Positions 1 through 43,257 of a DNA stretch of 64,000 nucleotides are shown here, piece after piece. Both the position numbers and the translations under genes were made by a program. Position 1 is the stretch's first letter, and each line of letters starts with the position of its first letter. This DNA comes from a virus: positions 1 to 64,000 of the IMG/VR virus record IMGVR_UViG_3300027754_000055, one strand, 5' to 3'. Below the pieces are notes generated by a model that did not search any database, was not told the DNA's origin, and was given only the letters and a program-made list of their open reading frames with translations.

Positions 1-121
1 TATTGTACGTTATGCTTGGCATACAGATAAGTATGTATCTTTTTTGAAAAAACTTCAATGTATGAAATTATTGATTCGCATTCCTCCCACACCACGAGGG
101 TGTGGGTTTCCTGCTCATGCA
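1..121 (-). mobile_element. Partial IS200/IS605-family (TnpB-type) element: left end plus start of an internal ORF, running off the window
   Basis: Reverse complement of about 74-121 is TGCATGAGCAGGAAACCCACACCCTCGTGGTGTGGGAGGAATGCGAAT, a variant of the left end at 10805 and 32124. A minus-strand ORF starts at 22 (MPSITYN...). Confidence 0.8.
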
Positions 122-122
122 A

Positions 123-272
123 ATGAAAAAATTCACGTTTGAACAAGAATATTTGTATTTAGAGATTGAATATGTTTCTGGTGCGCCTCCTAAGAAAAAA
201 ATTGAAGACAGCGAAGAAGAAAACAGGGGGGGATTATCATTATCGACTGCCTTAATGGTAATGAGGAAGTAA
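123..272 (+). CDS. Small acidic hypothetical protein (possible frameshift at G7, 226-232)
   Basis: Hand translation MKKFTFEQEYLYLEIEYVSGAPPKKKIEDSEEENRGG...; below the ORF-track cutoff. Confidence 0.45.
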   Translation: MKKFTFEQEYLYLEIEYVSGAPPKKKIEDSEEENRGGLSLSTALMVMRK

Positions 273-7877: not shown

Positions 7878-10769
7878 ATGGCGTTAAATAAAAAAGAGCA
7901 AGTTGACGAAATAATGAAATGCGGTGAAGAACCAATGTATTTCATTAAAAAATACCTCTATATCCAGCACCCAACAAAAGGACGTTTGCCTTTTGAACTT
8001 TATAAATTTCAAGAGCAATGCATTGATGATTTTTTAAACTATCGATTTAATATAGTAGTAAAAGGTCGTCAGCTTGGTTTATCAACTACCACTTCAGCAT
8101 ATTGCTTGTGGATGGCATTGTTTCGTAGAGATGCCGAAATTTTGATCATGGCTACCAAACTAGAAGTTGGTAAAGCAATGATTCAAAAAATACGCACAGC
8201 ATTCAAAATGTTACCAGCTTGGATGCTCAATATGTTGGACCTCACAGAGCCTGAAGCAGAATCTGTAAAATATATCAAATTCAATAATGGCTCAAGAATA
8301 ACTGCAATCCCAACCTCTGCCGATGCGGGTCGCTCATCAGCGGTTACGCTTCTCGTGATAGACGAATGTGCTCATATTGAAAACTTAGAAGAGTTATGGC
8401 TTGGTTTAAAACCAACGCTTAGCACTGGCGGTCGAGCAATCATGTTCTCATCTCCAAAAGGTAAAAATTTCTTTTATCAATTATGGATGGGCGCAGATAC
8501 CAATGAATATGAAAAAGATAAAATTGGCTTACATTGTACTTCTGTAGGGAAAAATGGATTCCACGGAATAAAATTACCATGGACGGTGCACCCAGAGCGT
8601 GATGATAAATGGTTTGAGGAAGAATCAAGAGCTATGTCTTCCCAGGGAATAGCTCAGGAATTATTATGTGTTGGGCCACAGTCTCGTATTCAGACATTTG
8701 ATGGGTTTAAATTTGCCAGTGATATCTCCATTGGGGACATGGTACTTACTCATAAAGGAAGATTTAAACCAGTAATAAATGTAGGGTCTAGGCTAGTAGA
8801 CCAAGAAGAAAACGTGTATCAAGTCTCAGTGCCATGCAATAGAGAAGAAGACCTTTTGATTACAGGAAATCATCCTTTGTATGGTAAAAAATTTCATTGC
8901 ACTTCTACTGTATCGCCATGGAAAAAGATAATAGACGAAGGTATTAAATCTGATTTTTATTCTCTTGATGAGATTGATAAATTTCAGAAAACATATGCCG
9001 ATAGATTTTTTTCTTCACTTCAGCCAGCAAATTATATTAATAATATCATTGGAAAAATTACGGATAAAATCGATTTATGGTCCTTTGATGTTCAAAAGAA
9101 GAAAATGATGCCAGATGGTAAAATTAGCTACTGGAGGCAACGCTCCGAAACGATAAACCGAATGGTAGATGTTGATTTTGACCTTGGTAGGTATATTGGT
9201 TTGTGTGTAGCTGAAGGATGTGTTAATAAAAATTATTCAAAGGGTCGTGCATTAACAGAAAATCTACAGTTAGCTTTTCATACCAACGAACTAGATACTC
9301 TTGGAAAATTTATAACAGACTTCTATGATAAACTTGGTGTAAAATATTGTGTAAATATTAGATCATATAGTAAGTGTTTTACGGTCCATACCAGCAACAA
9401 ATATATTATTGAGCTTTATAGGAATTTTGTAAACGCAGGAGATGCAACAAAAAAATACCTGAAATTTGACACTTTTTTATCTACAAATATCGATTTCATT
9501 AAGGGTTATTTAGTTGGTCACTTTGATGGTGATGGCGATCATTTGGAGGCTGCTTCATCTAATAATTTTGGTAAAAAAATAAAGGTAGTAACACGATCTC
9601 CGAAGTTGCTTAGCCAAATTAAAATATTATTGGCGGCATTCGGCCATTATGGTAGAATAAATTATAAAACTGGATACTATGAAATAGATGGAGTTGACCT
9701 ATTACCATCTCCTACTATACTTGAGGCATTGCAGACAAATAAAACATCATTAGAGAAATCCGGTAGCCGTACAAAATTAATTAATGATGAAATCATTGGC
9801 AATATACAATACAAACGATTTGATAAGGAAAAATGCCCCATCGTTTACAATATAGAGGTTGAAGAAGACCATTCATATATTGTTAATGGATTGGTCGTTC
9901 ATAATTGTTCCTTCGAAAGTTCGGCGTTAACTTTCTTTTCTCAAGCAGATATTGACTATGTAAGAAACCTATCATATCCTCCAATTGGATATGCTGGTCC
10001 TAATGGCAAAGGCAATGACATGCATATCTGGAAGACTCCAATCCCTGAGCATAAATATGTTATTGCCGCCGATGTCGCTAGAGGAGATGCAGAAGATTAT
10101 TCCACTTTCCATATATTTGATACCAATGAAAGCGAAGTGGTCGCAGAATATATGGGTAAAATTGCACCAGATAGATTTGGTGAATTTTTGATTGAAATTG
10201 GTAAAAAATACAATGATGCACTGATCGTAAATGAAAAAAATACAGTAGGGATCGCCACAGCAATCAAGCTAAGAGACTCAGAATATAAAAACGTATACTA
10301 CGATCCAGATTTGGCAGAGAAGATGGTAGGCATGACGCCGGATGAGAAGAAGGATATTCTACCCGGTTTTACGATCACATCAAAAAACAGAGAGCCTATA
10401 CTTGAGAATCTAGAGCAAGTTATCCGCAATCATCAGATAAAGATTTATTCTCTTAGATTTGTTGAGCAAATGGAAACATTTATCTGGAATGGTAAGCGTG
10501 GGCAGGCATTGAAAAAACGCCATGATGATCTTATTTTGGCAATGGGTGTTGGTTTGCAGATTTTTACACCAAGTGCTGCCCAGCAAGGATATCTTGGGAT
10601 GATGGCTGCGAATCAAACTATGGCTAATTCTTTATTGGCTGGTATGAGCAGGGGCTATAAGGATATAGAAAATAAATTTCAAGGTAAAAAATTGCCTCAT
10701 GGCGTTAATAAAAATGCGGTGAAATTTGATTCAGAATTGAAAAAAGAGTTCTGGTGGATGTTTAGGTAA
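7878..10769 (+). CDS. terL: Terminase large subunit (T4 gp17-like) with intein
   Basis: YIQHPTKG, Walker A KGRQLGLST, Walker B LLVIDE, SSPKG; nuclease ADVARGD...DYS and HDDLILA. Confidence 0.95.
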   Translation: MALNKKEQVDEIMKCGEEPMYFIKKYLYIQHPTKGRLPFELYKFQEQCIDDFLNYRFNIVVKGRQLGLSTTTSAYCLWMALFRRDAEILIMATKLEVGKAMIQKIRTAFKMLPAWMLNMLDLTEPEAESVKYIKFNNGSRITAIPTSADAGRSSAVTLLVIDECAHIENLEELWLGLKPTLSTGGRAIMFSSPKGKNFFYQLWMGADTNEYEKDKIGLHCTSVGKNGFHGIKLPWTVHPERDDKWFEEESRAMSSQGIAQELLCVGPQSRIQTFDGFKFASDISIGDMVLTHKGRFKPVINVGSRLVDQEENVYQVSVPCNREEDLLITGNHPLYGKKFHCTSTVSPWKKIIDEGIKSDFYSLDEIDKFQKTYADRFFSSLQPANYINNIIGKITDKIDLWSFDVQKKKMMPDGKISYWRQRSETINRMVDVDFDLGRYIGLCVAEGCVNKNYSKGRALTENLQLAFHTNELDTLGKFITDFYDKLGVKYCVNIRSYSKCFTVHTSNKYIIELYRNFVNAGDATKKYLKFDTFLSTNIDFIKGYLVGHFDGDGDHLEAASSNNFGKKIKVVTRSPKLLSQIKILLAAFGHYGRINYKTGYYEIDGVDLLPSPTILEALQTNKTSLEKSGSRTKLINDEIIGNIQYKRFDKEKCPIVYNIEVEEDHSYIVNGLVVHNCSFESSALTFFSQADIDYVRNLSYPPIGYAGPNGKGNDMHIWKTPIPEHKYVIAADVARGDAEDYSTFHIFDTNESEVVAEYMGKIAPDRFGEFLIEIGKKYNDALIVNEKNTVGIATAIKLRDSEYKNVYYDPDLAEKMVGMTPDEKKDILPGFTITSKNREPILENLEQVIRNHQIKIYSLRFVEQMETFIWNGKRGQALKKRHDDLILAMGVGLQIFTPSAAQQGYLGMMAANQTMANSLLAGMSRGYKDIENKFQGKKLPHGVNKNAVKFDSELKKEFWWMFR
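8667..9905 (+). mobile_element. Intein (413 aa) with LAGLIDADG homing endonuclease in terL
   Basis: Begins CVGPQSRI after AQELL; block B ITGNHPL; IGLCVAEG and LVGHFDGDG; ends VYNIEVEEDHSYIVNGLVVHN followed by Cys. Confidence 0.93.
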
Positions 10770-11210
10770 TCAATAGAAAAATTCAAAATATCTATTGCAT
10801 TTATTGCATGAGCAGAAAACCCACAGGCTCGTCCTGTGGGATGAATGCGATTCAATTTAAAATAATTTAAACAAAAACATATTTTGCATAATAATTAAAA
10901 TTATCGGAGCAATTAATTTTTCCGATATCGTTTGGAACGAACGATTACGAGCATGGAGAGAATATAAAACCAACTGGCTTGCCAGCGGTAATTTTCGGTG
11001 AAGTGCTTAAAGTTCTAGAGACAAACTCTTTAGAAGCTCATAGGCTTGTCCTGTGAGTAGTTCACCACAAATGGGTCTGTTTTTAACAATGATCATACCA
11101 GTAAATTTAGTTTTTTCTTTGCCACGAAGGATACCAGAAGAAGGCAGGATTATATTTCCTTCTTCTGGTAACTTATTGCAGCAATGGCAATAATCTTTTT
11201 GATCAATCAT
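10770..11210 (-). pseudogene. Small zinc-finger gene interrupted by the 261-bp element
   Basis: Joining 11210-11066 to 10804-10770 gives a 59-aa ORF YCHCC...PICDKCNRYFEFFY*, restoring the second CxxC. Confidence 0.8.
10805..11065 (+). mobile_element. Non-autonomous 261-bp derivative of the TnpB element (left end + omegaRNA scaffold + right end)
   Basis: First ~50 nt match 32124 onward. Last ~140 nt align with 33340-33480 and end GAGTAGTTCAC. Preceded by TTTAT. No tnpB. Confidence 0.92.
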
Positions 11211-11621: not shown

Positions 11622-12368
11622 ATGAAAGAAAAAGAAGCAACGATAGATGATATAGATTTATTTAAATTCTATCAAACAACCAAGGTTCTTAGCGAGGAAG
11701 GTAAACTTATTACTTCTAACCAAAAAATTCGTAATGATTTAGCGCAAAGAAATGCAAAGCTTGTTACATTCGTTATTAATAAATTTTATAGCAAAAAGCC
11801 AAAACACAAGACATTACGCAATGATTTACTGCAAGAAGGCCATCTTGGATTGTTCGATGCTATCGATGGTTATAAACCAGAACTTGGTTTTAAGTTTTCA
11901 ACTTATGCTACTTGGTGGATTCGTCAAAGTGTAAACTCTTATTTATTGGACGAAGAGCCTATCTTTCATATTCCGTCTCATATCCGAACAGCAAGAAATA
12001 AATTAGAAAATTTAGCAAAAGAGAGATCAATCCTAGTTAGAGATATTTCCAAAGAAACTCTCGAAGAAATCGGGATGACAGAAAAAATGTTTGCTTCGAT
12101 CGAAGCTGCAAATAAAACTAAAACCTGGAATCATATTTGTCTAGATATGCCAATTTCTTCATCTGGCGACAGTGCTAATAAATCCCTAAGAGATATTATA
12201 CCAAGCGATACTTCGGATTTTTCACTTGGTTTTGATAAAAAGAAAATAATCTTGGCAAGCGTTAAGGCATTTAAAGAGCTAAGCACAAGAGAAAAACACA
12301 TCTTGTTGCAACGGTATGGCTTCGAAAGTGATAAAATTATAAAAATGGAAAGTGAAACAAGTAAATGA
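11622..12368 (+). CDS. Phage sigma70-family RNA polymerase sigma factor, apparently lacking the region 4.2 HTH
   Basis: Region 2 DLLQEGHLGLFDAIDGYKPELGFKFSTYATWWIRQ, HIPSH, LDMPI, LSTREKHILLQRYG, then ends. Confidence 0.9.
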   Translation: MKEKEATIDDIDLFKFYQTTKVLSEEGKLITSNQKIRNDLAQRNAKLVTFVINKFYSKKPKHKTLRNDLLQEGHLGLFDAIDGYKPELGFKFSTYATWWIRQSVNSYLLDEEPIFHIPSHIRTARNKLENLAKERSILVRDISKETLEEIGMTEKMFASIEAANKTKTWNHICLDMPISSSGDSANKSLRDIIPSDTSDFSLGFDKKKIILASVKAFKELSTREKHILLQRYGFESDKIIKMESETSK

Positions 12369-15448: not shown

Positions 15449-15492
15449 GCGAACTACTCACAGGATGAACCCGTGGGTTTTTTGCTCATGTA
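15449..15492 (-). mobile_element. 44-bp minimal left-end/right-end fusion of the TnpB element (PATE-like)
   Basis: Minus strand TTTAT|TACATGAGCAAAAAACCCACGGGTTCATCCTGTGAGTAGTTCGC: left-end start, shared hairpin, right-end tail. Confidence 0.85.
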
Positions 15493-15919: not shown

Positions 15920-16167
15920 ATTTTTTTATAAATATAGGATTTTTTTATTTTTATGAGCAGTTCGCTCACGGGAAAAGCCTGCAAGCAATTGACAAGCTAC
16001 TGATCGGATGCAAAATTTCTGCACATGATCTAAGGCCAGATAATTGGGGAGTGAGAAATAGTGGAGAACTAGTAATTTTAGATTTTGGATTTGAACAAGG
16101 TGTTCTTGAAGAAAATTTTAAAATATAAAAACCATTACATTCCTCAACAATTGGCATATTTAAACAT

Positions 16168-17680: not shown

Positions 17681-17753
17681 GCGCCCATAGTCTAATGGCT
17701 AAGGCAACTGCCTTCTAAGCAGTATTATGTAGGTTCGACTCCTACTGGGCGTA
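17681..17753 (+). tRNA. tRNA-Arg (anticodon TCT)
   Basis: GCGCCCA/TGGGCGT acceptor; ACTGC-CTTCTAA-GCAGT anticodon arm; GTAGG-TTCGACT-CCTAC T-arm; no encoded CCA. Confidence 0.95.
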
Positions 17754-31835: not shown

Positions 31836-32186
31836 ATGATCTATTATCATGTTACAAATAACCCCGGTTTATTGCTGACGACAGCTGGCATATATCCACA
31901 AGCTAAACTTACAAACTCTATTGGAGTCGCAATGGAAGAGATATTGGAAGATCCACGGCTAATGGAAAAACATCAGAATCTTTCTATTGTTGTAATAGAC
32001 ATGGAAGGCATCAATATGCAAGAGAAATCAGCAAACCATTTCTTTGTTGCTGATTCTATTCCACGTAAAAGGATCAAGAAAATTATCCAAATAAGTGCAT
32101 TTGTGCCGGATTTCAGTTTTTATTGCATGAGCAGAAAACCCACAGGCTCGTCCTGTGGGATGAATGCGATTCATATAGAAAAATAA
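31836..32186 (+). CDS. KptA/ART-like small protein whose 3' end is interrupted by the TnpB element
   Basis: YYHVT...GIYP...VVID...DSIPRKRI pattern; native C-terminus NTQEEAILGTDK* lies at 33481-33519. Confidence 0.55.
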   Translation: MIYYHVTNNPGLLLTTAGIYPQAKLTNSIGVAMEEILEDPRLMEKHQNLSIVVIDMEGINMQEKSANHFFVADSIPRKRIKKIIQISAFVPDFSFYCMSRKPTGSSCGMNAIHIEK

Positions 32187-33480
32187 ATTTACACCATACT
32201 TAATATTAGGTATAAAGTAAATGGTTCTGCAAAACAAAACATACCAATTTAGAATCTATCCAAACACAGAACAGCAAAATTTGTTTGCTAAAATGTTTGG
32301 ATGTTCTCGTTTTGTTTGGAATTATTTTCTCAATAAAGAAAAAGAACATTTTCTAAAAAATAAAGAAAAAATCGAAGAAGAAAGAACAAAAAATTTTCTT
32401 TCTTATTTTGATAATGCAAAAGCTTTAACTCTTTTAAAGCAAAACCCAGAAACTAAATTTTTAAAAGATGCAAACTCACAAAGCCTTCAAGTAGCACTTA
32501 AAAATCTAGATATTGCTTACAAAAGATTTTTCAAAAAGCAAAGTGGTTTTCCAAATTTCAAAAAGAAATTTGGAAAACAATCTATTTGTATTCCGCAAAG
32601 CCTTTCAATCGAAAATGGAATGCTCCATATTCCAAAGTTTAAAACCGGAATTAAAATTAAACAGCACAGACCAATCAAAGGCAGGATCACAACTTCAACC
32701 ATTACCAAAACACCAACCAACAAGTATTTTGTTTCTATTTCTGTAGAAGAAACCATTCATAACTTACCAAAAATAAACAATGCTGTTGGAGTTGATCTTG
32801 GAATCAAGAGTTTCGCTTTTTTGTCTAATGGAGAAGAGATATCGAATCCAAAATATCTTGTTAAGCATTCAAACCAACTAAAGAAACAACAGCAATATCT
32901 TTCAAGAAAATTGAAAGGTTCAAATAGAAGAAAAAAACAAAAGCTAAAAGTAGCAAAAATTCACGAAAGAATTACCAATCTCCGAAAAGATTTTCAGCAT
33001 AAACTTTCTTCGAAATTAGTTCACGAAAACCAAGTGATTTGTATAGAAGATTTAAGTATTAAAAACATGTTGAAAAACCATAAATTATCAAAAGCCATTC
33101 AAGACAGTTCTTGGAGTAGTTTTGTTAATTTGTTAGAATATAAGTGCAAGTGGTACGGAAGAACATTAATCAAAGTTGATAGATTTTTTCCAAGTTCTAA
33201 AACTTGTTCGGACTGTGGCTACATCAACCAAAATCTAAAACTCAAGGACAGAGAATGGATTTGCAAAGGTTGCGGAGTAGTTCAACAGAGGGATTGGAAT
33301 GCATCAAAAAATATTCTTAAGCAAGGCTTAAACCTTGTTGATAGATCGTTCGGAACGAACGATCACGAGCATGGAGGAAATATAAAACCAAGTGCAAACT
33401 TGGAAATTTCCGATGAAGTGCTTAAAGTTCTAGAGATAAACTCTTTAGAAGCTCACAGGCTTGTCCTGTGAGTAGTTCAC
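32124..33480 (+). mobile_element. IS200/IS605-family (IS1341-type, tnpB-only) element, 1357 bp
   Basis: TTTAT target 5'. Left hairpin CCCACAGG-CTCGT-CCTGTGGG, right hairpin CTCACAGG-CTTGT-CCTGTGAG, ends GTTCAC. No target duplication; excision restores the host ORF. Confidence 0.93.
32221..33471 (+). CDS. tnpB: TnpB RNA-guided endonuclease
   Basis: TYQFRIYPN HTH; RuvC GVDLG, IEDL, RDWNAS; zinc finger CSDCG/CKGCG. All three acidic catalytic residues are present. Confidence 0.96.
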   Translation: MVLQNKTYQFRIYPNTEQQNLFAKMFGCSRFVWNYFLNKEKEHFLKNKEKIEEERTKNFLSYFDNAKALTLLKQNPETKFLKDANSQSLQVALKNLDIAYKRFFKKQSGFPNFKKKFGKQSICIPQSLSIENGMLHIPKFKTGIKIKQHRPIKGRITTSTITKTPTNKYFVSISVEETIHNLPKINNAVGVDLGIKSFAFLSNGEEISNPKYLVKHSNQLKKQQQYLSRKLKGSNRRKKQKLKVAKIHERITNLRKDFQHKLSSKLVHENQVICIEDLSIKNMLKNHKLSKAIQDSSWSSFVNLLEYKCKWYGRTLIKVDRFFPSSKTCSDCGYINQNLKLKDREWICKGCGVVQQRDWNASKNILKQGLNLVDRSFGTNDHEHGGNIKPSANLEISDEVLKVLEINSLEAHRLVL

Positions 33481-40276: not shown

Positions 40277-43257
40277 CAATCCAAGTACAAATGGAAATTA
40301 AAAATAAAATTGAAGTAATTTATGGTAATGCTATCCAAGATGGCAACTTTATGTTTAAGGTTTCTGAGCCTTCTAGGATCATTCCAAGAGTAAATGATTC
40401 AAAATATCATTCTCTAAAAGAATGGCAAGTAGAAGCCGTCACTCAACTGAATAATGAAAAATATTTCATTATTCAAGCCCCTACAGGGGCAGGGAAAAGC
40501 TATGGGCTTTGCTCGCTAGCATATGAAAAAATTAAAAATGATAGGCAATTAAAAGTTGTATTTGCAGTGCCGCAAACAATTATTGCCAGCGGATTCGTTG
40601 ATAAAACTTTTGTGAGTGCCTTTGGAGATAAAGTAGATTTTAACCCGCACGCAAATCTTTGCAGTGACTATACAAACGAAGGCACTGTCAGAGATTTTCT
40701 TGGGTTTCTCGGCAATACTGCCCCGGTTTCTGTAGGGATGGAAAGCCAAAACGTTGTCATTTGTACGCATGCAACTCTCGTTGCAGCATTCAAGGCAAAT
40801 AGAAGTTTATTCAACAATGTTCTCGTTGTCGTGGATGAAGCGCACCATGTTAGAAACGAAATTGTATACACAGATTTAGAAGACGATGGAGAACTTGAAT
40901 CGGAAAATGAGTGCGATGAAGAGGATGAAAATCAAGAGCTAATTTGGAATGGCCTTGGAGAAATTGTAAGTTACGCACTAGAAGATAATAATCAAGATAA
41001 AAATTTCCAGATTGGATTAACGACGGCAACATTTTTTCGTAGTGATTCCGCATCAGTTGTTCCGGCTGGGACCAAGAATGATAAATTTTCTACATTCTTT
41101 CTACCATTCGATAAATTTTTTAATTCACTGACGCATCTGCGTTCACTTTCATTTAATTCCGTATTCTATTCAAAAGATTACTGGCGGCAAATTGACGAAT
41201 GCATCAAGACACAGGGCGAGTTTAAAAAATCAATATTCTTTATTCCATCAGTAATGTCACATTCTTCGTCTGGTAAGAAAAATGATGTCTTAAATATCAT
41301 TAAAGGCATTTCCGGTAAGCAATTTATTGTTGAGGATATCGATTATCAATTCCTAAATGAATCATTGAAAAAAACGACATATGATAATCATATTTATATT
41401 AGCATTACTAGAAACGGAGAAACACTGCGCTTTGTAGATTTTGTCTCAGAGCCAAATCGCAAGGAAAAAAAGAAAATTATCAATGACTCTCACGATGCCG
41501 ACTTAGAAGAAAATATCCATGGTATTATTGCCCTTGGAGTTTTCAAAGAAGGGGCTTCGTGGAAATGGGCAGAGAACTGCTATATCATTGGAGAGCGTAG
41601 ATCGCTAGTAGAGCTTGTGCAAATTAACGGTAGACTCTATCGTGATGTGGCCGGTAAAGAATCAGTGTCTACATTTTATTTTGTAGATCGATATTTTGAT
41701 CCAACAAGCACTGAAGATGAATTCTTGGAACGTTCAAACACAACGTTTAAAACTGTCTTTGTTTCAATGATGATCGAAGAGATTCTTATGCCGCCTTGTA
41801 AAATCACAAGGCGAATTAATGTAGTAAATAAAATCACTGGTGCGCTAGAGGAAGTTGTCAAAGAGTATCATCCAATCCTTGAACTCGCTGGTAGCCCTGA
41901 TAAGGCCATTACACTTAAGAAAAACATTATTGATACTTTTAATGAATTATCCATAAAGGAGTTAACTTCAGCTGAAATTAATAAAGGTGGAGATGTTGTA
42001 CTTGGTAAAATTCAAAATCTTGTAAAAAAAGCTATTATAATCAATCTTGAAAAAAACAAAACATACGCCGAAGAATCTATTGAGGATGCCGTTAAAGAAA
42101 TCTATGATTTTACGGCAAAAAGAAATAACGCTACTAAAAACACAAAGCCGAAAGAGGCATTAAAAGAGCCAATGTTTGATGTGAATGATATCAATTTTGA
42201 TATTATGGACAAAACACCACTTGGGCTCTGGTTCGCTTGTTCTTCGGGTAATGTGGGAGTTAAAGATTTCGAGAAACTACGTACCGCTTTTTGTTCTGGA
42301 ATTGATGCTCAAATAAATTCAGTAAAAGAAATTATAGATTTTAAGCAGAAAAATGGAAATTTGCCTTCTCAGGGATCTAAAGACCAAACAGAAAAGAAAA
42401 TGGGGAACAAGCTTTCCGATTTAAAAAAAGCTAAGCAAGGAAAGGGTAGAAGTAAGTTTTATGCAGAAACACATGATTATGCAAAAGGTCGTGGTTGTCC
42501 CGATATGTTTGAGGTTGAAACGGAAGAAACAAGAAAAGCAGACCAAATAGAATCAGTAAAAGAAATTATAGATTTTAAGGAAAAAAATGGAAAGTGGCCT
42601 TCTCACGCTTCTAAAGACCAAACAGAAAAGAAAATGGGGAACAAGCTTTCCGATTTAAAAACAGCCAAACAAGGAAGGGGTAACAGTAAGTTTTATGTAG
42701 AGACACAGGAGTATATAAAAGATCGTGGTTATCCTGATATGTTTGAGGTTGAAACAGAAGAAACAAGAAAAGCAGACCAAATAGAATCAGTAAAAGAAAT
42801 TATAGATTTTAAGGAAAAAAATGGAAAATATCCTTCGGAAAAATCTAAAGATCCAACAGAAAAGAAAATGGGGAAAAAGCTTTCCGATTTAAAATCAGCC
42901 AAGCAAGGAAGGGATAGGCGTGGGTGCAAGTTTTACCCAGAGACACAGGATTATGCAAAAGGTCGTGGTTATCCTGATATGTTTGAGATTGAAACGGAAG
43001 AAACAAGAAAAGCAGACCAAATAGAATCAGTAAAAGAAATTATAGATTTTAAGGAAAAAAATGGAAATTTGCCTTCTCAGGGATCTAAAGACCAAACAGA
43101 AAAGAAAATGGGGAAAAAGCTTTCCGATTTAAAAAAAGCTAAGCAAGGAAAGGGTAGAAGTAAGTTTTATGCAGAAACACATGATTATGCAAAAGGTCGT
43201 GGTTATCCTGATATGTTTGAGGTTAGGAAGCAAAAAACAACTGGGTCTATAAAATGA
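40258..43257 (+). CDS. SF2 (DEAH-box) helicase with four C-terminal helicase-associated-like repeats
   Basis: WQ Q-motif, APTGAGKS, VVDEAHH, TTAT, KEG, QINGRLYR; four repeats IIDFK.KNG..PS. Confidence 0.88.
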   Translation: MYVMLSSIQVQMEIKNKIEVIYGNAIQDGNFMFKVSEPSRIIPRVNDSKYHSLKEWQVEAVTQLNNEKYFIIQAPTGAGKSYGLCSLAYEKIKNDRQLKVVFAVPQTIIASGFVDKTFVSAFGDKVDFNPHANLCSDYTNEGTVRDFLGFLGNTAPVSVGMESQNVVICTHATLVAAFKANRSLFNNVLVVVDEAHHVRNEIVYTDLEDDGELESENECDEEDENQELIWNGLGEIVSYALEDNNQDKNFQIGLTTATFFRSDSASVVPAGTKNDKFSTFFLPFDKFFNSLTHLRSLSFNSVFYSKDYWRQIDECIKTQGEFKKSIFFIPSVMSHSSSGKKNDVLNIIKGISGKQFIVEDIDYQFLNESLKKTTYDNHIYISITRNGETLRFVDFVSEPNRKEKKKIINDSHDADLEENIHGIIALGVFKEGASWKWAENCYIIGERRSLVELVQINGRLYRDVAGKESVSTFYFVDRYFDPTSTEDEFLERSNTTFKTVFVSMMIEEILMPPCKITRRINVVNKITGALEEVVKEYHPILELAGSPDKAITLKKNIIDTFNELSIKELTSAEINKGGDVVLGKIQNLVKKAIIINLEKNKTYAEESIEDAVKEIYDFTAKRNNATKNTKPKEALKEPMFDVNDINFDIMDKTPLGLWFACSSGNVGVKDFEKLRTAFCSGIDAQINSVKEIIDFKQKNGNLPSQGSKDQTEKKMGNKLSDLKKAKQGKGRSKFYAETHDYAKGRGCPDMFEVETEETRKADQIESVKEIIDFKEKNGKWPSHASKDQTEKKMGNKLSDLKTAKQGRGNSKFYVETQEYIKDRGYPDMFEVETEETRKADQIESVKEIIDFKEKNGKYPSEKSKDPTEKKMGKKLSDLKSAKQGRDRRGCKFYPETQDYAKGRGYPDMFEIETEETRKADQIESVKEIIDFKEKNGNLPSQGSKDQTEKKMGKKLSDLKKAKQGKGRSKFYAETHDYAKGRGYPDMFEVRKQKTTGSIK
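42310..43225 (+). repeat. Four in-frame tandem repeats (234, 234, 240 bp, last partial)
   Basis: Units start at 42310, 42544, 42778 and 43018 with CAAATA(A/G)A(T/A)TCAGTAAAAGAAATTATAGATTTTAAG. Confidence 0.95.

What the first reader, a model, noticed from the sequence alone, without database searches (positions are those of the whole stretch)
10805..11085. Guide-only cassette: omegaRNA scaffold kept, tnpB deleted, able to reprogram the TnpB at 32221 in trans
Seen: 261 bp with both ends and the ~140-nt right-end scaffold. One internal stem is swapped for a different one (CTGGC-TT-GCCAG versus CCAAGT-GCAA-ACTTGG). A TAATTA at 10892 and a hairpin ATCGGA...TCCGAT precede the scaffold. Predicted guide CACAAATGGGTCTGTTTT with TAM TTTAT matches the reconstructed empty allele (...PICDKC zinc-finger gene) immediately downstream of terL. 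Known: TnpB cuts empty donor-joint sites using the right-flank guide. Inference: one nuclease with several dispersed guides, late-expressed, cutting related co-infecting phages that lack the insertions, i.e. a multi-guide homing or inter-phage competition system.
Basis: partly seen in the sequence, partly recalled or inferred. Interest (0 to 1): 0.75.

Follow-up and report, generated by a model that had tools for sequence, protein, structure and literature searches.

The report
Gene-less TnpB guide-RNA mini-transposon in phage
A 261-base gene-less copy of a small jumping element sits in a lake-phage genome and still carries an intact guide-RNA scaffold for the RNA-guided nuclease TnpB encoded 21 kb away; this kind of element is already described, but here wild relatives with and without the insertion can both be seen.

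Summary
Window 10805-11065 is a 261-bp ORF-less IS200/IS605-type mini-element (a PATE), inserted after TTTAT. Its left end is identical to that of the tnpB-only element at 32124-33480. Its last 139 nt match that element's omegaRNA scaffold at 86-90% identity.

It is not a local deletion of that copy. The same mini-element, 95-96% identical over its whole length, lies at about six other sites in four or five otherwise unrelated lake-phage contigs.

The scaffold fold is supported: 97.9% of cells pair, and 6 pairs changed on both sides. The TnpB looks active, with D-E-D and zinc-finger residues kept and dN/dS about 0.1.

Natural empty alleles exist. A 59-aa protein identical to the reconstructed zinc-ribbon gene is found on many metagenome contigs. 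The interrupted 67-aa form is found on fewer. The tnpB element's own site is polymorphic in the same way.

Trans use of this guide by TnpB is likely but untested. The "multi-guide phage weapon" idea has no direct support: the window holds only two scaffolds, and other minis break genes or lie antisense to their neighbours.

PATEs that encode omegaRNAs for trans use were described by Meers et al. 2023. This scan has already met the type in other phages. Verdict: new member of a known kind.

The parts
10800..10804 (+). TTTAT target / transposon-adjacent motif (TAM) abutting the left end
   Evidence: All 9 mini and full copies compared are preceded by TTTAT, while the bases before it differ. The natural empty allele reads ...GAT AAA... 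across this point.
10805..10860 (+). Left end with subterminal hairpin CCCACAGGCTCGTCCTGTGGG (10820-10840)
   Evidence: 10800-10854 is 100% identical to the left end of the tnpB element, 32119-32173. On the minus strand the hairpin followed by a T run also scores as terminator-like.
10861..10926 (+). Mini-specific spacer: promoter-like TTTAAA-N18-AATAAT (10866-10895), TAATTA (10892-10897) and hairpin ATCGGA..TCCGAT (10903-10926)
   Evidence: The spacer is conserved in all close mini copies, and the hairpin varies only in its loop. The promoter scan gives 9/12, which is weak. TANTTA lies before 22 of 78 ORF starts against 11 +/- 3 in shuffles. A promoter role is inferred, not shown.
10927..11065 (+). 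omegaRNA scaffold / right end (six helices; last hairpin = right-end TnpA hairpin; ends GTAGTTCAC)
   Evidence: It has the same fold as the full copy. 97.9% of cells pair, 6 pairs changed on both sides, and 0 of 500 shuffles reach that. The covariance model scores it 162 bits, E 3e-37.
11066..11085 (+). Predicted guide (right flank) CACAAATGGGTCTGTT...
   Evidence: The copies stop being alike exactly at 11065/11066. TAM plus guide equals the natural empty allele.
11066..11210 (-). 5' part (48 codons plus the first base of the Asp codon) of the interrupted 59-aa zinc-ribbon gene; as it stands the ORF is 11007-11210, 67 aa, with 19 residues read from the right end
   Evidence: The 67-aa form is P0001, P0012, P0018 and P0020. 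The 59-aa form includes P0008 and others.
10770..10804 (-). Displaced 3' part of the zinc-ribbon gene (...DKCNRYFEFFY, stop 10770-10772)
   Evidence: Reconstruction. It is identical to the C-terminus of the natural 59-aa alleles.
32124..33480 (+). Full-length tnpB-only IS200/IS605 element (TAM 32119-32123; tnpB 32221-33471; omegaRNA scaffold 33345-33480; guide from 33481)
   Evidence: Pfam finds OrfB_IS605, Cas12f-like TNB and HTH domains. It matches ISDra2 TnpB 8H1J at E 1e-77 with the D, E, D and CxxC..CxxC residues kept. dN/dS is 0.09-0.13. The natural empty allele P0037, 108 aa, equals the predicted excision product.
1..122 (-). Left end of a third, variant family member that runs off the window start
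   Evidence: It is 87% complementary to the left end, with compensated hairpin changes. The first 127 nt are identical to the start of contig G002, so this looks like an assembly break in a repeat.
15449..15492 (-). 44-bp one-hairpin micro-element (left-end head fused to right-end tail) after TTTAT; no scaffold
   Evidence: A similar copy is in L016. It suggests that family members need no scaffold to persist.

Best explanation
Window 10805-11065 is a non-autonomous, ORF-less member of an IS200/IS605-family transposon group (a PATE-type mini-element). It keeps three things: the two ends that a Y1 TnpA transposase needs, a short AT-rich spacer that probably carries a promoter, and a complete omegaRNA scaffold.

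Shown here:
- It inserted after TTTAT, 11 codons before the stop of a small phage zinc-ribbon gene.
- It belongs to a mini-element family that has landed at about seven sites in at least four phage contigs.
- Alleles with and without the insertion coexist in wild relatives.

Inferred:
- The element is transcribed, from its own promoter or by read-through from terL.
- The RNA is loaded in trans onto TnpB made by the full-length element at 32124-33480, or by a sister copy.
- The complex cuts DNA carrying TTTAT followed by CACAAATGGGTCTGTT. That sequence is the empty allele, which arises after TnpA excision or arrives with a co-infecting relative.
- Recombinational repair from an occupied genome then restores or spreads the insertion.

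The beneficiary is the element itself. Any harm to rival phages is a side effect.
For: Identity as a mini-element:
- The ends match the tnpB element.
- No ORF lies inside it.
- All copies follow TTTAT.
- Other copies are 95-96% identical over all 266 bp, with unrelated flanks.
- Insertion is precise, with no duplication, as shown by natural 59-aa alleles identical to the reconstruction.

The scaffold is under RNA-level constraint:
- The mini and the full copy fold the same way.
- 97.9% of cells pair, 6 pairs changed on both sides, 0 of 500 shuffles reach that, and slid controls give 0-1.
- Synonymous change collapses in the part of tnpB that overlaps the scaffold: dS 0.035 against 0.34.
- A 71%-identical dead copy, L023:2790-3041, shows broken helices by contrast.
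- The 44-bp micro-element suggests the scaffold is not needed just to be a family member.

The nuclease is available and looks active:
- Pfam domains are present.
- Catalytic D, E, D and zinc-finger residues align to ISDra2 TnpB.
- dN/dS is about 0.1.
- A full tnpB element of the same family lies on the window contig and on G001; G002 shows only the first 119 nt of one at its end, so co-occurrence holds for 2 of the 3 large contigs and probably the third.

Targets exist:
- Empty alleles (59 aa) are on more than 50 contigs and occupied alleles (67 aa) on about 9.
- The same holds for the tnpB element's own site.

The published mechanism and the PATE precedent are in PMC10055086.
Against:
- The promoter call is weak: 9/12 in AT-rich DNA.
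- The mini's right end differs from the window's tnpB copy by about 10-14%. The in-frame stem swap points to a sister tnpB lineage as parent, so compatibility is assumed, not shown.
- The copies are young (95-96% identical). Part of the scaffold's conservation may therefore be mere recency.
- Both insertions are minority alleles, roughly 10-15%. That is not what a strong drive at equilibrium would give.
- No tnpA was found in the window ORFs tested or in G001/G002.
Confidence: 0.6

Rival explanations
1. Passive hitch-hiker. The mini-element is moved by TnpA alone. Its omegaRNA is not made or not used, and the scaffold is intact only because the deletion that made the family is recent.
For: - The copies are only 4-5% apart.
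- The promoter evidence is weak.
- Some minis lie antisense to all their neighbours.
- A decayed copy exists, so decay does happen.
- Occupied alleles are a minority.
Against: - The deletion breakpoint keeps exactly the whole scaffold.
- Differences between the mini and full lineages preserve the structure: the pair at columns 33-69 goes G-C to A-U, and the apical stem is replaced by another stem.
- The window copy's two private changes both give G-U wobbles.
- The spacer and upstream hairpin are conserved among copies.
Confidence: 0.25
2. Phage weapon. TnpB plus dispersed guide cassettes has been selected for the phage's benefit, as a multi-guide system that destroys competing co-infecting phages.
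For: - Closely related phages lacking the insertions exist and would be cut.
- Among the 15 distinct empty alleles retrieved (three 90% clusters), the Lys codon that forms the TTT of the TAM is the most variable site, with 5 different residues. That would fit escape from cutting.
- Homing endonucleases are known to act this way in T-even phages (PMC13565253).
Against: - The covariance model finds only two scaffolds in 64 kb.
- Each guide is fixed by where the element landed and matches only its own empty site. No cross-targets were found among the contigs held.
- The insertions truncate or split phage genes.
- The TAM-codon variability was not repeated at the two other sites examined.
Confidence: 0.1
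3. Structural or regulatory by-product. The element matters to the phage as a transcription terminator or RNA stabiliser between the convergent terL and zinc-ribbon genes.
For: The left-end hairpin followed by a T run scores as an intrinsic terminator on the minus strand, as does the swapped stem. The 44-bp micro-element looks terminator-like on the plus strand.
Against: - The empty allele is the common form, and in it the two genes already abut.
- Other copies sit inside genes.
- A terminator role does not explain why 139 nt of scaffold is kept.
Confidence: 0.04

Closest known systems
PATE-like minimal IS200/IS605 elements encoding omegaRNAs (Geobacillus stearothermophilus; Meers et al. 2023, preprint PMC10055086)
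   Same: ORF-less, with both IS ends and an omegaRNA that must be used in trans by a TnpB encoded in another element. Full and mini elements share ends and a family-wide TAM.
   Different: - Carried by large uncultured lake phages rather than a bacterial chromosome.
- The same mini family is spread over unrelated phage genomes.
- Occupied and empty alleles are both visible in natural populations.
- A conserved spacer with a hairpin lies upstream of the scaffold.
ISDra2 TnpB-omegaRNA (Deinococcus radiodurans; PDB 8H1J, 8EXA)
   Same: The TnpB aligns over residues 2-392 at E 1e-77 with the catalytic D, E, D and the zinc finger kept. The guide is the right flank and the TAM is the 5-nt insertion target.
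   Different: - The TAM is TTTAT rather than TTGAT (the ISDra2 TAM is recalled from memory).
- No adjacent tnpA.
- The scaffold sequence is unrelated at the DNA level. Rfam has no family that matches it.
Homing-endonuclease marker exclusion in T-even phages, and the proposed 'transposon non-restorative homing' (review PMC13565253)
   Same: A nuclease carried by one phage cuts the allele lacking the element in a co-infecting relative, and repair copies the element in.
   Different: Here recognition would be by RNA guide. It would extend to a second locus that encodes no nuclease. No cross has been done.
Earlier follow-ups in this scan (e1-5673542, e1-5511973, e1-5841675, e1-5688672)
   Same: Gene-less IS605 mini-elements in phages that keep a promoter remnant and a TnpB guide scaffold, with a full element elsewhere in the genome.
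   Different: This case adds protein-level evidence from metagenomes for empty/occupied polymorphism and for further insertion alleles.

Membership tests
IS200/IS605 non-autonomous mini-element (PATE) | No protein-coding gene inside the element | tested here: met
   No ORF of 40 aa or more lies within 10805-11065. Only flanking ORFs read into it.
IS200/IS605 non-autonomous mini-element (PATE) | Both ends carry the subterminal hairpins of a full-length family member, with no terminal inverted repeats | tested here: met
   The left end is 100% and the right end 86-90% identical to the tnpB element. The hairpins are at 10820-10840 and 11036-11058.
IS200/IS605 non-autonomous mini-element (PATE) | Insertion 3' of a fixed short target, without target-site duplication, and with seamless excision | tested here: met
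   TTTAT precedes all copies. Natural 59-aa and 108-aa alleles equal the seamless excision products.
IS200/IS605 non-autonomous mini-element (PATE) | Several copies at unrelated sites | tested here: met
   About seven distinct insertion sites (counting the window's own) in at least four phage contigs besides the window. Further insertion alleles P0045 and P0026 exist.
IS200/IS605 non-autonomous mini-element (PATE) | A Y1 (HUH) TnpA available in trans | tested here: inconclusive
   PF01797 was not found in contigs G001 or G002, and the positive controls worked. It was not found in the six window ORFs tested. Earlier scan notes place a tnpA about 9.6 kb beyond the window end, where I cannot look.
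TnpB omegaRNA | Lies at the 3' end of tnpB and the right end, with the guide taken from the flank | tested here: met
   The scaffold at 33345-33480 overlaps the last 42 codons of tnpB. The mini keeps the homologous 139 nt, and similarity ends at the flank.
TnpB omegaRNA | Conserved secondary structure with compensatory change | tested here: met
   97.9% of cells paired, 6 pairs changed on both sides, 0 of 500 shuffles reach that, slid controls 0-1. Depressed dS in the overlap region.
TnpB omegaRNA | Transcribed and bound by TnpB; directs TAM-dependent cleavage | not testable with these tools
No biochemical tool is available.
TnpB (IS605 OrfB) nuclease | HTH/WED, RuvC and zinc-finger architecture with an intact catalytic D-E-D | tested here: met
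   Pfam PF12323, PF01385 and PF07282. Alignment to 8H1J keeps gvDlg, iciEdl, qRDwn and CxxC..CxxC. Omega is about 0.1.

The most novel reading that the evidence does not exclude
In wild populations of these large lake phages, TnpB plus gene-less guide cassettes acts as an RNA-guided gene drive during co-infection. It converts empty alleles at several loci, including loci that encode no nuclease, and target genes respond by mutating the TAM. The hint for this last point is that the Lys codon forming the TAM's TTT carries five different residues among the 15 distinct empty zinc-ribbon alleles retrieved (three 90% clusters).
Probability: 0.2. Interest if true: 0.7.

Novelty: new member of a known kind. 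Interest (0 to 1): 0.35.

Why it matters
This locus shows that the trans-acting, guide-only form of the TnpB system travels on phage genomes in nature. It offers a clean natural test bed. Occupied and empty alleles of two loci coexist in related phages: one locus carries the nuclease and the other carries only a guide. RNA-guided homing between co-infecting phages could therefore be tested directly. The mechanism itself is not new, and nothing here shows activity.

Tried and rejected
- **Local deletion of the 32221 copy:** rejected. The mini family exists elsewhere with its own spacer and stem. The 3-nt in-frame stem difference points to a sister tnpB lineage.
- **More scaffolds in the window:** a covariance model run with filters off finds only two.
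- **Rfam:** no family matches the element.
- **Cultured-phage DNA search:** no match. The nearest cultured TerL is a Flavobacterium phage at 35% identity, so the host is unknown. The best cellular-MAG tnpB hit (86%) is a 30-kb contig binned as Saccharibacteria, possibly a phage contig.
- **tnpA:** not found in G001, G002 or the tested window ORFs. It more likely lies beyond the window.
- **Cross-targeting between contigs:** none. One 15-nt look-alike in L023 is a paralogue motif without a TAM.
- **TAM-escape signal:** seen in the zinc-ribbon gene (post-hoc binomial 0.016). It was not repeated in the other two target genes, so I treat it as a hint only.
- **Variant left-end search:** found only G002. 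The pattern CCAACTGGCTTGCCAGCGG returned three loci (L098-L100) that BLAST does not relate to the element.

Full report
**What is there**

The window is a low-GC (35.6%) phage contig. A terL gene with an intein (7878-10769) ends 31 nt before the feature.

- At 10800-10854 the sequence is 55/55 identical to 32119-32173.
- At 10927-11065 it is 86-90% identical to 33345-33480.
- The second locus is a 1357-bp tnpB-only IS200/IS605 element at 32124-33480. Its 416-aa ORF carries the HTH, OrfB_IS605 and Cas12f-like TNB domains.
- The feature is therefore a 261-bp ORF-less derivative (10805-11065) that keeps both ends.
- Similarity between copies starts at TTTAT and stops after GTAGTTCAC. This gives TAM TTTAT and guides CACAAATGGGTCTGTT (mini) and AATACTCAAGAAGAAG (full).

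**It is a family, not a one-off deletion**

Pattern scans of IMG/VR and JGI metagenome contigs, followed by BLAST, recovered the same mini-element. It is 95-96% identical over all 266 bp, including the mini-specific spacer.

- Copies lie at two sites in G001 (65.6 kb), one in G002 (86.5 kb), at least two in a 121-kb contig (L020, L023), and in L005 (the L006 copy shares its left flank with L020, so it is the same insertion).
- A 71%-identical decayed copy (L023:2790-3041) and a 359-bp variant also exist.
- Flanks are unrelated, and every close copy follows TTTAT.
- Outside the elements these contigs share no DNA similarity with the window. The family therefore moved between phages by transposition.
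- The mini's right end stays open in the tnpB frame, and its swapped stem is exactly 3 nt longer. Its parent was therefore probably a sister tnpB lineage, not the window's copy.

**The scaffold**

The mini and the full copy fold into the same six-helix layout. I aligned four full and five mini copies, including an 86%-identical full element from L101.

- 97.9% of cells form pairs.
- Six pairs changed on both sides, in helices 1, 3, 5 and 6. None of 500 shuffles reaches this, and slid controls give 0-1.
- Between the window and G001 tnpB genes, dS is 0.34 over codons 1-373. It drops to 0.035 in the tail that overlaps the scaffold.
- The decayed copy has broken helices.
- A covariance model built from the alignment finds exactly two scaffolds in the window, at 163.7 and 162.1 bits. 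Everything else scores 18 bits or less.

**The nuclease**

- The TnpB aligns to ISDra2 TnpB (8H1J) at E 1e-77. The three RuvC carboxylates and both CxxC pairs are kept.
- dN/dS against two other phage-borne copies is 0.09-0.13.
- A full element of the same family lies on the window contig and on G001. G002 ends 119 nt into one, so co-occurrence there is probable only.

**Empty alleles are real**

- Excising 10805-11065 in silico gives a 59-aa minus-strand zinc-ribbon ORF.
- The protein database holds that exact protein (P0008) and many close 59-aa variants, on more than 50 contigs of up to 158 kb.
- The interrupted 67-aa form (P0001, P0012, P0018, P0020) is on about 9 contigs.
- The occupied form occurs on at least two flanking haplotypes (IIV and IVV, eight codons from the junction).
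- The tnpB element behaves the same way. The predicted 108-aa empty allele exists (P0037 and others, more than 40 contigs), against the 116-aa occupied form on 4 contigs.
- The gene hit by the L020 mini also has abundant intact 115-aa alleles.
- Two further alleles (P0026, P0045) read into right ends at other TTTAT sites. The family has therefore been recently active in these phage populations.

**A hint, not a result**

- Among the 15 distinct empty zinc-ribbon alleles retrieved (drawn from three 90% clusters), the Lys codon that supplies the TTT of the TAM carries K, Q, R, L or I. It is the most variable site.
- Variant states are about 4.6 times denser in the 8 codons of TAM plus guide than elsewhere among the 12 closest alleles (post-hoc binomial 0.016).
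- This would fit escape from insertion or cutting.
- It was not repeated at the other two sites, and I could not see the DNA.

**How it most likely works**

Shown:
- a seamless insertion of a mobile, gene-less element;
- a scaffold under RNA-level constraint;
- an intact, selected TnpB on the same genome;
- natural targets.

Inferred:
- transcription, either from the spacer or by read-through from terL (no plus-strand terminator is predicted between 10769 and 10927);
- loading onto TnpB in trans;
- cutting of TTTAT plus guide in genomes lacking the insert;
- repair from an occupied genome.

Promoter evidence:
- The spacer holds a 9/12 sigma-70-like match.
- It also holds a TANTTA motif, which is enriched before ORF starts (22 of 78 against 11 +/- 3 in shuffles).
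- Minis in G002 and G001 lie antisense to or inside neighbouring genes. If they are expressed they need their own promoter.
- Those minis also break genes, which argues for a selfish element rather than a phage adaptation.

**What moves it**

No Y1 transposase was found in G001, G002 or the window ORFs tested. Earlier first-reader notes on the same 109,652-bp record place a tnpA plus 379-aa tnpB element about 9.6 kb beyond my window. I could not check this. The coordinates in those notes mirror mine exactly, which suggests an inverted duplication or an assembly artefact around the repeated element.

**Comparison with what is known**

- Meers et al. 2023 (PMC10055086) describe PATE-like elements in Geobacillus. 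They state that such elements often encode omegaRNAs that must be used in trans by TnpB from other IS copies.
- A 2026 review (PMC13565253) lists 'transposon non-restorative homing' on co-infecting phages or plasmids as a theoretical mode.
- tnpB is common in cultured phages: 436 records match.
- This scan has already followed up several phage mini-elements of this type.

**Verdict and limits**

The finding is a well-supported new member of a known kind. Its added value is the natural presence/absence polymorphism at both a nuclease-bearing and a guide-only locus.

Empty-allele DNA and expression therefore remain unchecked.

Noticed in passing
window 15449-15492 (minus strand); also L016:589-643: A 44-bp one-hairpin micro-element after TTTAT: a left-end head, a single hairpin and the right-end tail AGTAGTTCGC. 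It has no scaffold. It looks like the product of recombination between the two near-identical end hairpins. On the plus strand it resembles an intrinsic terminator.
   Followed up: partly
window 1-127 and G002:1-127: The window and contig G002 start with the same 127 nt, the left end of a variant family member. G002 ends 119 nt into a copy identical to the window's tnpB element. These look like assembly breaks at k=127 in repeated IS copies.
   Followed up: partly
record beyond window end (notes e1-6025356, e1-6018508, e1-6025355): Earlier notes place the same mini, micro and tnpB elements at coordinates that mirror mine exactly in a 109,652-bp record. They also place a tnpA plus 379-aa tnpB element about 9.6 kb past my window. 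This suggests an inverted duplication or a mis-assembly through the IS. I could not see that DNA.
   Followed up: no
L002:3389-5873 (G001): In G001 the full-length tnpB element sits inside a 368-aa gene whose N-terminal part is a GIY-YIG domain (Pfam E 5e-8). An RNA-guided nuclease element has split a homing-endonuclease-type gene.
   Followed up: partly
proteins P0026 and P0045: These are natural alleles of two target genes that read into right ends at other TTTAT sites (GAT AAA and TAT AAA on the coding strand). They are further independent insertions in the same small genes.
   Followed up: partly
window 11050 (alignment column 115) and 10933 (column 7): The window's mini has two private C-to-T changes, one of them in the right-end hairpin (protein reads GQAYELL, against GQACELL in other occupied alleles). 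Both keep G-U pairing in RNA. In single-stranded DNA they would create G-T mismatches, which may weaken TnpA recognition.
   Followed up: no
G002:16589-16952 (L039, minus strand): A 359-bp ORF-less element with variant ends (86-88% identical) and an unrelated structured interior. It may be the guide cassette of the second TnpB type.
   Followed up: no
window 7878-10769: The large terminase is 963 aa because it carries an intein with a LAGLIDADG domain (Pfam Hint_2, Intein_splicing, LAGLIDADG_3). The nearest cultured TerL is a Flavobacterium phage at 35% identity.
   Followed up: partly
window 15955-15990: TTTTTATGAGCAGTTCGCTCACGGG resembles a left-end head with a degenerate hairpin. The covariance model gives it a weak hit of 7 bits. 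It may be another remnant.
   Followed up: no
window 11622-12368, 17681-17753, 42220-43227: A sigma-70 region-2 protein gene lies just downstream of the feature. There is also a tRNA gene, and four tandem copies of a 234-240-nt unit that is probably an array of small paralogous genes.
   Followed up: no
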